A DNA stretch of 64,000 nucleotides from Eledone cirrhosa (lineage: Eukaryota): NCBI GenBank assembly GCA_964016885.1, contig OZ024750.1, positions 11,966,001 to 12,030,000 of the forward strand, given 5' to 3'. The translations under genes were made by a program, and so were the position numbers. Under the pieces are notes generated by a model. It saw only the letters and a list, made by a program, of their open reading frames with translations, searched no databases and had not been told where the DNA came from. Shown here piece by piece: positions 26,601 through 29,600 of this stretch (position 1 is the stretch's first letter; each line of letters begins with the position of its first letter).

Positions 26601-29600
26601 TGGGTCTGAGCCTGAAACCATATGGTTCCAGGGCAAACTCCTTAACCATAATCATGCCTGCACCAAATATAATAATTTGTATCTTATAAAATTAAAGGTC
26701 TAATGTTCTATAAATTGTTACCATATATAAACAAAGTAGGAATTAAAGAACCATTTTGATAGATCGAAAATATGCAAAAAGCTTAAGGTGTTATCTCTGT
26801 TGCCAAGAAAAGCTTTCTATCTATATACAAGAAAAAGCAAGCTGTAAAATAAATATGATGCTGCTACAGGTAGTAAAATGTGATAGATCTGTGGACCACA
26901 GATACAGTCTGTCTTGTCATTAAGATTAATTATTAGATGTGATAGATCTGTGGACCACAGATATAGTGTCTTAAGATGATGTGATAGATCTGTGGACCAC
27001 AGATATAGTGTCTTAAGATGATGTGATAGATCTGTGGACCACAGATATAGTGTCTTAAGATGATATGACAGATCTGTAGACCACAGATACAATTAATGTG
27101 TTGTCGTTAAGATGATAGATGAGATGGATCTGTGGATCACATGCTATCAATATCTTGTCATTAATCATTAATTATTAGATGTGACAGATCTGTGGACCAC
27201 AGATGTAATCAATGTCTTGTCGTTAATTATTAGATGTGAAAAAAGATCTTACTGCTACCTCCAATGGAGAATTCACTAAGAAATCTCCAAAGTCACGTTT
27301 TGTACATGAAGACGGATATTCTTTGTGAATGGTCATCTGGTATTGTTTGAATACTTTGTAAGAATCTTCAAATGAGTACTTGAACTGTGTAGAGGCAGGG
27401 CTAGTCAGAACCAGTTTAATCTATGCATGCCAATCCAAGGAGGTAGGAACATATGAAAAAGAATAAACAATGTAAGAACTGTTATTACCTTAGGGACCAA
27501 TGGAGAGTCCACAAGGAAGCAGGTATATTGCCTAACAGTGGGTTTCTCAGGTGAATCATTATGCACATTTGTTTGGTAATTATAGTAGACCTGATGGCTT
27601 TCTTTAAATGTGTTGTTGAAGGCTGTACATTTAGGATTTGATCGTATTAGCCTTATCTGAAAGAACAATGTGTGTGTTAAGATGTAAATAATATTTACTA
27701 AAGTTAAACTCTTAGTGAGAGGCAACAGATGAGTCATTAAGTCTTCAGGAAGGAAAAATAGCACAGCCCACAAGAGAAAGGTTAAGATTTAACCCTTTAA
27801 GGACCAGTCTATGAATTTCAATAAAGAATGTAGTGGGGTTTAGTAAATTAACTAATTTTGTTGTTTTAAATCTAGTGTTTGGAACATAAAAAGTTCTTAC
27901 TTAAAATTGATGGGAAGTTGTAATTCAAATTATGAAAACTTTAAAACAGGAAGTTTTGTATGATAGAAACAGAGAGTGATGGGTTAGTAAAGGTTATGAT
28001 AGATTGTAGATGTGCTGTTCATGGACCAATAGTTTTGTATGATAGAAACAGAGAGTGATGGGTTAGTAAAGGTTATGATAGATTGTAGATGTGCTGTTCA
28101 TGGACCAATAGTTTTGTATGATAGAAACAGAGAGTGATGGGTTGGTAAAGGTTATGATAGATTGTAGATGTGCTGTTCATGGACCAATAGTTTTGTATGA
28201 TAGAAACAGAGAGTGATGGGTTGGTAAAGGTTATGATAGATTGTAGATGTGCTGTTCATGGACCAATAGTTTTGTATGATAGAAATAGAGAGTGATGGGT
28301 TGGTAAAGGTTATGATAGATTGTAGATGTGCTGTTCATGGACCAATAGTTTTGTATGATAGAAACAGAGAGTGATGGGTTGGTAAAGGTTATGATAGATT
28401 GTAGATGTGCTGTTCATGGACCAATAGTTTTGTATGATAGAAACAGAGAGTGATGGGTTGGTAAAGGTTATGATAGATTGTAGATGTGCTGTTCATGGAC
28501 CAATAGTTTTGTATGATAGAAACAGAGAGTGATGGGTTGGTAAAGGTTATGATAGATTGTAGATGTGCTGTTCATGGACCAATAGTTTTGTATATAAATA
28601 GAGAGAGAGAGAGAGAAATATTTCACTTTCATTGTGATATCTTATCAGACGTTTTCTCTGTGGTTTATCTGAAAGCACACAACTTCAATTGTCACAGTCT
28701 ACCTTGATGGAAACTGGTGTCACAAACAATTTAGTGTTCAGTGACAATTATTGGGAAGGAGATTTAGCCAAAAAAAAAAAACCCATCATAAATAACAATA
28801 ATTCATAAAGAAAACACATAACGATGATGATGATCAGCAGGAAAAGTATAAAGGCAGTTTAAATTAAATGTCATACAACCCCTAGTATAATGATAGGATT
28901 AAATATGTCATACAACCCCTGGTATAATGATAGGATTAAATATTATGCCATACAACCCCTGGTATAATGATAGGATTAAATATTATGCCATACAACCCCT
29001 GGTATAATGATAGGATAAATATTATGCCATACAACCCCTGGTATAATGATAGGATTAAATATTATGTCATACAACCCCTGGTATAATGATAGGATTAAAT
29101 ATTATGCCATACAACCCCTGGTATAATGATAGGATTAAATATGTCATACAACCCCTGGTATAATGATAGGATTAAATATTATGCCATACAACCCCTGGTA
29201 TAATGATAGGATTAAATATGCCATACAACCCCTGGTATAATGATAGGATTAAATATTATGCCATACAACCCCTGGTATAATGATAGGATTAAATATGTCA
29301 TACAACCCCTGGTATAATGATGGGATTAAATATGTCATACAACCCCTGGTATAATTATGGGATTAAATATTATGCCATACAACCCCTGGTATAATGATGG
29401 GATTAAATATTATGTCATACAACCCCTGGTATAATGATGGGATTAAATATTAAGTTAAACAATTCCTGTAATAATAATAATAAGGAAATATTCAAGACTG
29501 CTCCAAAAATGAATTTTTACTTTAAGTGGATATAAAATATTAAAAAGAAAACATTTGATGGTTATTTACCTCGAGTTTGTGAGCAACATTTTGTTGTTGG

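What the first reader, a model, noticed from the sequence alone, without database searches (positions are those of the whole stretch)
27253..27656. ATE1 has a tandem pair of mutually exclusive exons that appear to match the two vertebrate variants
Seen: two collinear paralogous phase 0-0 exons, 6A ([30 protein letters not shown]) and 6B ([30 protein letters not shown]), only 68 nt apart. Established: vertebrate Ate1 has mutually exclusive exons 7A/7B at this position. Inference from recalled sequences: 6A carries the 'RS.P...P..PT..Q' signature of one vertebrate exon and 6B the 'C.K.E/D' signature of the other. This suggests a duplication older than the protostome-deuterostome split. Here the duplicated unit also includes the FL.SPL segment, which I recall as constitutive in vertebrates. 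6B is invisible in the ORF track and could be missed by annotation.
Basis: partly seen in the sequence, partly recalled or inferred. Interest (0 to 1): 0.72.

Follow-up and report, generated by a model that had tools for sequence, protein, structure and literature searches.

The report
Octopod ATE1 swappable twin exons
This octopod's gene for ATE1, the enzyme that tags proteins with arginine, has two side-by-side copies of one exon, each found alone in assembled transcripts; the switch is already annotated in Octopus and published as ancient, but coral gene models carry a matching pair, so it is likely older than the published date.

Summary
ATE1 (minus strand) has paralogous phase 0-0 exons 6A (27656-27489, 168 nt) and 6B (27420-27259, 162 nt), 68 nt apart. 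Contigs of an RNA-like run holding this sequence form a two-armed bubble: depths 16.4 (A) and 11.6 (B) against 27.2 upstream. No A-B joint was listed. The alternative donor 27253 was not seen in use.

It is largely known. Octopus RefSeq annotates both isoforms, and PMC8373072 dates the event to Bilateria, citing common octopus. Another paper says invertebrates lack a 7b homologue.

Deuterostomes and corals have 43+43 residues plus a separate 11-residue exon. The order is conserved: Lys at cassette position 38 in 26/28 upstream exons, Asp/Glu in 26/28 downstream exons. Trees cannot settle the history: none of five scenarios is rejected, and 6B does not group with vertebrate 7b. So 6B = 7b is about 55% likely. 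Exclusion is likely steric (inferred). The scan noted this, corals included, on another genome (e1-8802306).

The parts
27489..27656 (-). ATE1 coding exon 6A (168 nt, 56 aa, phase 0-0); upstream 'A-type' cassette
   Evidence: AG/GT ends. X10 contig of 224 nt, depth 16.4, joined to 25430 and to 29570. Also the main form in runs X1 and X3 of relatives.
27259..27420 (-). ATE1 coding exon 6B (162 nt, 54 aa, phase 0-0); downstream 'B-type' cassette
   Evidence: X10 contig of 218 nt, depth 11.6, joined to 25430.
27421..27488 (-). 68-nt A-B intron; AG-free for 56 nt before the acceptor; the YTNAY branch-point candidates have their A at 16, 25 and 35 nt from the donor
   Evidence: Shortest of the gene's 10 introns; the next is 167 nt. 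The branch point is predicted, not mapped.
27253..27258 (-). possible 6-nt extension of 6B to a second GT donor
   Evidence: Sequence only; no joint listed. Octopus X2 models have a 1-residue extension of B.
29570..29659 (-). constitutive coding exon 5 (90 nt), upstream of the pair
   Evidence: X10 contig depth 27.2; joint 29659/29827
25249..25430 (-). constitutive coding exon 7 (182 nt), downstream of the pair; ATE_C domain
   Evidence: joints from both arms; Pfam PF04377 E 8.7e-18
23656..35156 (-). whole ATE1 coding model: 35156-35063, 31694-31631, 30637-30324, 29966-29827, 29659-29570, 6A or 6B, 25430-25249, 24694-24595, 24247-24130, 23834-23656
   Evidence: All junctions AG/GT and the ORF is stop-free. 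The junctions between exons 3, 4, 5, 6 and 7 are seen in contigs; the rest rest on sequence and homology.

Best explanation
The octopod ATE1 gene has two homologous in-frame exons that each appear alone in assembled transcripts, giving two arginyltransferase isoforms that differ in a ~55-residue stretch predicted to line the substrate site; joint inclusion is likely blocked because the 68-nt intron between them places its predicted branch point too near the donor. SHOWN: exon anatomy; separate A and B transcript arms whose depths add up to the shared exon's depth; both forms annotated in Octopus; a ~54-aa two-exon cassette in lophotrochozoans and arthropods, and a 43+43+11-aa layout in deuterostome and coral protein models. 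INFERRED: steric exclusion (about 65%); different substrate or dimer behaviour of the isoforms, from mapping onto human ATE1 (the cassette spans Y298-Q299, I302-H303, D308-E309 and, in protostomes only, R317); a single protostome-wide origin of the cassette (about 85%); homology of the coral pair with the vertebrate pair, making the switch older than Bilateria (about 65%); 6B as the true orthologue of vertebrate 7b rather than a later re-duplicate (about 55%).
For: Bubble in X10: arms of 224 and 218 nt = exon + 28 + 28; depths 16.4 + 11.6 = 28.0 vs 27.2 on the upstream contig, which ends 2 nt into the start shared by both exons. The genomic run X7 covers introns evenly (about 4x) and shows neither joint. 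Octopus models: 4 A, 4 B, 0 both, of 8. Intron: 3 of 3 YTNAY adenines lie within 35 nt of the donor, under the ~50-nt threshold cited in PMC7969005 (passages). A+B and skip-both are both in frame, so NMD cannot enforce exclusion. A relative's run X1 has a 258-nt contig that retains this intron without gaps. Where order is observed (28 species), position 38 is Lys in 26/28 upstream and Asp/Glu in 26/28 downstream exons. Profiles trained on coral and deuterostome exons rank the pair in the right order in 12/12 lophotrochozoan and 8/8 arthropod species. Coral B + vertebrate 7b form a starred clade (95/89) and protostome B another (99/95). All-B clade is not rejected (p-AU 0.387); protostome A+B clade is marginally disfavoured (p-AU 0.042). 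R317 site: Arg in 18/21 protostome A, 1/21 protostome B, 20/20 constitutive copies. Human contacts from PMC11283454 (passages).
Against: RNA evidence is assembled contigs from one run whose library is not on record. Contigs drop rare forms and 23 joint rows were not shown, so strict exclusion is not proven and nothing is known on tissues. Models with both exons exist in other animals, and human ATE1 has '>10 joining reads' (PMC5740500 supplement row). The branch point is not mapped, and the 50-nt threshold comes from vertebrates. Under LG+G4 none of five constrained histories is rejected (p-AU 0.32-0.63 with 83 rows, 0.07-0.64 with 43 rows), and re-duplication from A scores best by 3.8 and 2.8 log units over a single origin. 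The order signal lies mostly in columns 34-43; with columns 1-33 alone vertebrate-lophotrochozoan quartets split 34/28/44 (2 ties, of 108). Coral-ambulacrarian quartets favour within-species pairing, 19 of 28. Single-copy outgroups have Lys/Arg (9/21) or Asp/Glu (10/21) at position 38, so convergence is easy. Window 6B itself has Ser there. The 3' boundary differs between protostomes and vertebrates. The human dimer partners K476-R477 are not conserved in Octopus.
Confidence: 0.75

Rival explanations
1. History rival: the coral/deuterostome 43+43+11 pair is ancestral, but protostomes lost the old B exon. One recombination with an A-isoform cDNA would fuse A to the 11-aa exon and delete B. The fused 54-aa exon was then re-duplicated. 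6B would be a convergent newcomer, not vertebrate 7b.
For: Explains the shifted 3' boundary with two simple events. Best likelihood of five constrained trees in both datasets. Protostome B is a starred clade apart from coral/vertebrate B. The tail of protostome A keeps the constitutive form (Arg 18/21) while B's tail diverged. PMC9741552 Table S5 lists Drosophila Ate1 as 'same region, convergent'.
Against: The advantage is not significant. Protostome A+B clade p-AU 0.042 under the mixture model. It needs the new downstream copy to regain an acidic position 38 and the B-like loop (columns 34-43 same-order in 107/108 vertebrate-lophotrochozoan quartets).
Confidence: 0.28
2. History rival: corals duplicated the exon independently of bilaterians, either with a shared bilaterian pair (the published date) or with three separate duplications that converged on the same loop chemistry.
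For: Neither scenario is rejected (p-AU 0.48 and 0.40 with 83 rows). Coral A falls beside the B exons in the free tree (unstarred). PMC7797038 argues for a chordate origin (passage). PMC8373072 reports three independent origins for ACOX1.
Against: Corals share both boundaries and the order with deuterostomes. Coral B + vertebrate 7b is starred. Coral-vertebrate quartets are same-order in 31/36.
Confidence: 0.33
3. Mechanism rival: exclusion is enforced by competing intronic RNA duplexes, as in human ATE1 (R1/R3/R4), or by weak 6B acceptor recognition, not by steric hindrance.
For: Shown for human ATE1 (PMC7797038; passages and Introduction). The 6B acceptor lacks a pyrimidine run next to the AG.
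Against: Duplexes between the 300-nt flanks and the 68-nt intron were no more stable than shuffles (139/200, 139/200 and 161/200 shuffles as good or better). This crude test ignores long-range pairings and conservation.
Confidence: 0.2
4. 6B is a dead or rarely used copy, or both exons are routinely included together.
For: Run X3 of a relative shows only the A form; in X1, B appears only in an intron-retaining contig at depth 3.7. A+B is in frame.
Against: A spliced B arm at about 40% of depth in X10. 37/43 identity with Octopus B. B isoforms annotated across protostomes.
Confidence: 0.03

Closest known systems
Octopus sinensis / O. bimaculoides RefSeq ATE1 isoforms X1 and X4 (A) and X2 and X3 (B)
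   Same: Same two cassettes and boundaries; 38/43 and 37/43 identical over the first 43 residues.
   Different: Another octopod (whole protein 397/478 identical). Octopus X2 extends B by one residue; here the second GT would add two and was not seen in use.
ATE1 tandem-exon event dated to Bilateria 'in common octopus, for example' (PMC8373072)
   Different: Its stated criterion of identical splice sites is not met at the 3' end (54-56 vs 43 aa). The sections read searched only within Bilateria and name no cnidarian.
Vertebrate ATE1 mutually exclusive exons 7a/7b (PMC7797038)
   Same: Same 5' boundary, phase and order; homologous loop; in-frame either-or use.
   Different: 129-nt exons plus a separate 11-aa exon, against 168/162-nt exons that include it. 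Exclusion is by competing RNA structures in human and likely steric here. That paper states a 7b homologue is absent in invertebrates.
Steric-hindrance exon pairs with distant branch points (OGDH 4a/4b, PMC7969005; short-intron C. elegans clusters, PMC4165533)
   Same: Short intervening intron, long AG-free zone, predicted branch points under 50 nt from the donor.
   Different: OGDH branch points were mapped; here they are motif predictions only.

Membership tests
Tandem-duplicated mutually exclusive exons | two adjacent homologous exons in one gene | tested here: met
   20/54 identities, 0/100,000 shuffles as good; 2 matches in the own genome, both here
Tandem-duplicated mutually exclusive exons | same phase, canonical splice sites, each gives a full ORF | tested here: met
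   phase 0-0; ORFs of 482 and 480 aa without internal stops
Tandem-duplicated mutually exclusive exons | each exon is spliced alone between the same flanking exons | tested here: met
Tandem-duplicated mutually exclusive exons | co-inclusion and double skipping are rare | tested here: inconclusive
   no A-B joint among the rows shown and the depths add up, but contigs only, and 23 joint rows were not shown
Arginyl-tRNA-protein transferase (ATE1) | ATE_C domain and full-length homology to animal ATE1 | tested here: met
   PF04377 on exon 7, E 8.7e-18, and weakly on both cassettes; 397/478 identity to Octopus ATE1
Orthologue of vertebrate 7a/7b | same 5' splice position, phase and order | tested here: met
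Orthologue of vertebrate 7a/7b | same 3' splice position | tested here: not met
   54-56 aa in protostomes; 43 aa plus a separate 11-aa exon in vertebrate, hemichordate and coral models
Orthologue of vertebrate 7a/7b | A groups with 7a and B with 7b in a tree | tested here: inconclusive
   lophotrochozoan A with vertebrate 7a at 88/81 (unstarred); protostome B separate; five histories not rejected
Steric-hindrance exon pair | branch point under about 50 nt from the upstream donor | tested here: inconclusive
   all 3 YTNAY motifs at 16-35 nt; no lariat mapping
Docking/selector RNA-structure exon pair | conserved competing complementary intronic elements | tested here: inconclusive
   local duplexes no better than shuffles; no orthologous intron DNA from other animals was available for a conservation test
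Functionally distinct ATE1 isoforms | different activity, localisation or tissue ratio | not testable with these tools
   reported for mouse 7a/7b in the Introduction of PMC7797038; untested in molluscs

The most novel reading that the evidence does not exclude
The ATE1 exon switch arose before cnidarians and bilaterians split, which would make it one of the oldest alternative-splicing events still in use. Corals and deuterostomes keep the original 43+43+11 layout. The protostome ancestor rebuilt it into a 54-residue cassette that brought the substrate-contacting Arg317 site under splicing control (Arg in 18/21 A exons, 1/21 B exons), and cephalopods police it with a 68-nt intron rather than the RNA duplexes that humans use.
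Probability: 0.45. Interest if true: 0.58.

Novelty: already known. Interest (0 to 1): 0.33.

Why it matters
The octopod exon pair itself is annotated and mentioned in print. The comparison bears on a conflict between papers: chordate origin (PMC7797038), bilaterian origin (PMC8373072), convergence in the fly (PMC9741552 Table S5). Invertebrates plainly have a second exon, so 'absent in invertebrates' fails as a statement about duplicates. Coral models could push the date back further. The boundary shift gives a concrete test case for how a two-exon switch changes its edges or is re-invented. The swapped segment maps on substrate- and dimer-contact residues of human ATE1, which makes the open question of why 7a and 7b isoforms differ testable with natural variants.

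Tried and rejected
(1) No run on record as RNA was listed as a holder. X10 is treated as RNA only because it has spliced joints and exon-level depth that the genomic run X7 lacks. Tissue ratios could not be had.
(2) Donor 27253: no joint among the rows shown; not excluded.
(3) Metagenome scan for animal genomic loci, to read exon structure directly: 80 loci kept of 263, 78 with a cassette hit, 1 with two hits (one cassette split at another place), none with a tandem pair. Two long sponge-like loci (L004, L010) are single-copy and unbroken across the cassette, so they do not fix the ancestral state of the 43/44 intron.
(4) Local RNA-duplex search: negative.
(5) Idea that Lys vs Asp/Glu at position 38 switches the human-type dimer salt bridge: weakened, because the partner residues K476-R477 are not conserved beyond some vertebrates and read EQ in Octopus. 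No fold or complex prediction was run.
(6) The first constrained-tree run timed out; it was completed. Ciona (one cassette type in the models fetched) was left out of trees. A/B labels for echinoderms, Ptychodera, Pocillopora, Octopus, Aplysia, Patella, Mya, Mercenaria, Lingula and Lineus were assigned by similarity, not observed order; the 26/28 counts use observed order only.
(7) Weak PDB matches of 6B to unrelated chains (E 0.07 or more) were taken as chance.
(8) Literature searches found one paper with ATE1 + octopus + splicing and none in the listings tying ATE1 exons to corals. The library lacks most subscription journals, including (from recall) the original mouse isoform papers, and supplementary figures could not be seen.

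Full report
OBSERVATION. The minus strand carries an 11-exon ATE1 coding model (35156-23656) with AG/GT at every junction. Coding exon 6 is present twice: 6A 27656-27489 (168 nt) and 6B 27420-27259 (162 nt), both phase 0-0, with a 68-nt intron between. They share 20/54 residues; 0 of 100,000 shuffles reached the score. Both match human ATE1-2 in the PDB. A search of the own genome with 6B found only these two places among 15 candidates scored. A-only, B-only, A+B and skip-both are all in frame (482, 480, 536, 426 aa). The nearest proteins are octopod (397/478 to Octopus X1).

TRANSCRIPT EVIDENCE. No run on record as RNA was listed. Run X10 carries the same organism code as the genomic run X7 and behaves as RNA: it has spliced joints and exon-level depth. 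It holds two contigs of 224 and 218 nt, each equal to one exon plus 28 nt on each side, at depths 16.4 and 11.6; both join to 25430. The 224-nt contig runs from exon 5 (29570) into 6A. The upstream contig (depth 27.2) ends two letters into the start shared by both exons. The arms sum to 28.0. This is the assembly bubble expected of either-or use. No A-B joint and no use of 27253 were among the rows shown, but 23 joint rows were hidden and contigs drop rare forms. Runs X1 and X3 of relatives show the A form; X1 also has a depth-3.7 contig retaining the 68-nt intron.

MECHANISM (inferred). The intron is the shortest of ten (next 167 nt). It has no AG in the 56 nt before its acceptor, and its three YTNAY adenines lie 16, 25 and 35 nt from the donor. 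That is under the ~50-nt threshold cited in PMC7969005 (passages); PMC4165533 describes the same principle (passages). NMD cannot remove A+B, which is in frame; retaining the intron does hit a stop. A local duplex search was negative. Human ATE1 uses competing RNA structures (PMC7797038, passages and Introduction). Steric exclusion is about 65% likely.

WHAT THE CASSETTE DOES (inferred). Counting along the human sequence, cassette positions 27, 32 and 38 are Y298, H303 and E309, and the third residue of the 11-aa tail is R317. PMC11283454 (passages) lists Y298-Q299, I302-H303, E314, R317 and F318 near the substrate, and D308-E309 and R317-F318 at the dimer interface. Position 38 is Lys in 39/41 A and Asp/Glu in 38/41 B exons. 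The R317 site is Arg in 18/21 protostome A, 1/21 protostome B and 20/20 constitutive tails. The window's own exons are atypical: Cys and Asp at the R317 site, Ser at position 38 of 6B. The dimer partners K476-R477 are not conserved in Octopus, so tuning of the substrate site is the likelier role.

DISTRIBUTION (from protein models, not genomic DNA). The Octopus cluster has 4 A-only, 4 B-only and 0 double models of 8. A ~54-aa unit appears in gastropods, bivalves, Lingula, Lineus, a shrimp, insects and a spider. A 43-aa unit with a shared 11-aa tail appears in vertebrates, hagfish, hemichordates and echinoderms, and in corals. For Acropora, Montipora and Porites there are A-only, B-only and A+B models; for Acropora also skip-both and tail-skipping models, which mark all three boundaries. 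The sponge Oscarella shows one cassette in all 6 full models, and Ciona one type in the models fetched.

HISTORY. For a shared origin: where order is observed (28 species), upstream is Lys38 in 26 and downstream Asp/Glu in 26, though these are only three or four independent lineages. Profiles from corals and deuterostomes order 12/12 lophotrochozoan and 8/8 arthropod pairs correctly; single-exon calls are weaker (20/26 and 14/16), and window 6B itself scores higher on the A profile. In the 83-row, 43-column tree protostome B is one starred clade (99/95), coral B + vertebrate 7b another (95/89), and lophotrochozoan A sits with vertebrate 7a unstarred (88/81). An all-B clade is not rejected (p 0.387); a protostome A+B clade is borderline (p 0.042). 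Against: none of five fully constrained histories is rejected under LG+G4, and re-duplication from A scores best by 3-4 log units over a single origin. The signal sits in the last ten columns, and both loop states occur in single-copy outgroups. My odds: one origin before Bilateria with protostome remodelling 0.35; old pair with protostome re-duplication 0.30; coral independent with a bilaterian pair 0.20; three origins 0.15.

WHAT IS KNOWN. PMC8373072 (sections 7 and 17, passages, supplement rows) lists ATE1 as Bilateria-age, 'in common octopus, for example', under a rule of identical splice sites that the 3' boundary does not meet. PMC9741552 (passages, supplement rows) keeps that age but lists Drosophila Ate1 as convergent. 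PMC7797038 places the duplication after the chordate radiation. PMC5740500 (passages, one supplement row) lists annotated exon pairs in both human and fly ATE1. Five searches showed no paper on the coral pair; subscription papers and supplementary figures were not visible. An earlier agent note of this scan on another genome (e1-8802306) reached the same view, corals included. I had found the coral models before reading it; it is not independent evidence.

VERDICT. A real, transcribed exon pair, already annotated in Octopus and published as ancient. The remaining interest lies in the coral pair and the protostome boundary shift. Interest 0.33.

Noticed in passing
window 48204-50387 (-): Neighbouring gene with a PI-PLC-X domain (PF00388, E 9.1e-06 on 48204-49082), likely a PLCXD-type gene on the same strand upstream of ATE1.
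   Followed up: partly
window 63519-63998 (-): 160-aa open frame rich in Ser, Pro and Lys at the window edge; no Pfam match; probably an exon of another gene.
   Followed up: no
window 25564-26018: Very high-copy interspersed repeat in the intron after 6B: summed contig depth up to about 1.2 million in the genomic run and about 10,000 in X10.
   Followed up: no
window 27952-28607, 28868-29452, 32632-33268, 26936-27232, 24999-25214: Several minisatellites (periods about 40-79 nt; the longest arrays 93-98% matches) fill ATE1 introns, while the A-B intron stays at 68 nt.
   Followed up: no
proteins P0308-P0311 (Centruroides) and P0469-P0471 (Ciona): All models fetched for scorpions (5) and Ciona carry one cassette type only, a possible loss or non-annotation of the second exon.
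   Followed up: no
L004:4397-5878, L010:7081-8547: Long metagenome contigs with sponge-like ATE1 matched over about 1.5 kb, so apparently without introns, with a single cassette whose first half is A-like and whose loop is B-like.
   Followed up: partly
window 27253-27259: Tandem GT donors after 6B; Octopus RefSeq has a matching micro-variation (B with or without one extra residue).
   Followed up: partly
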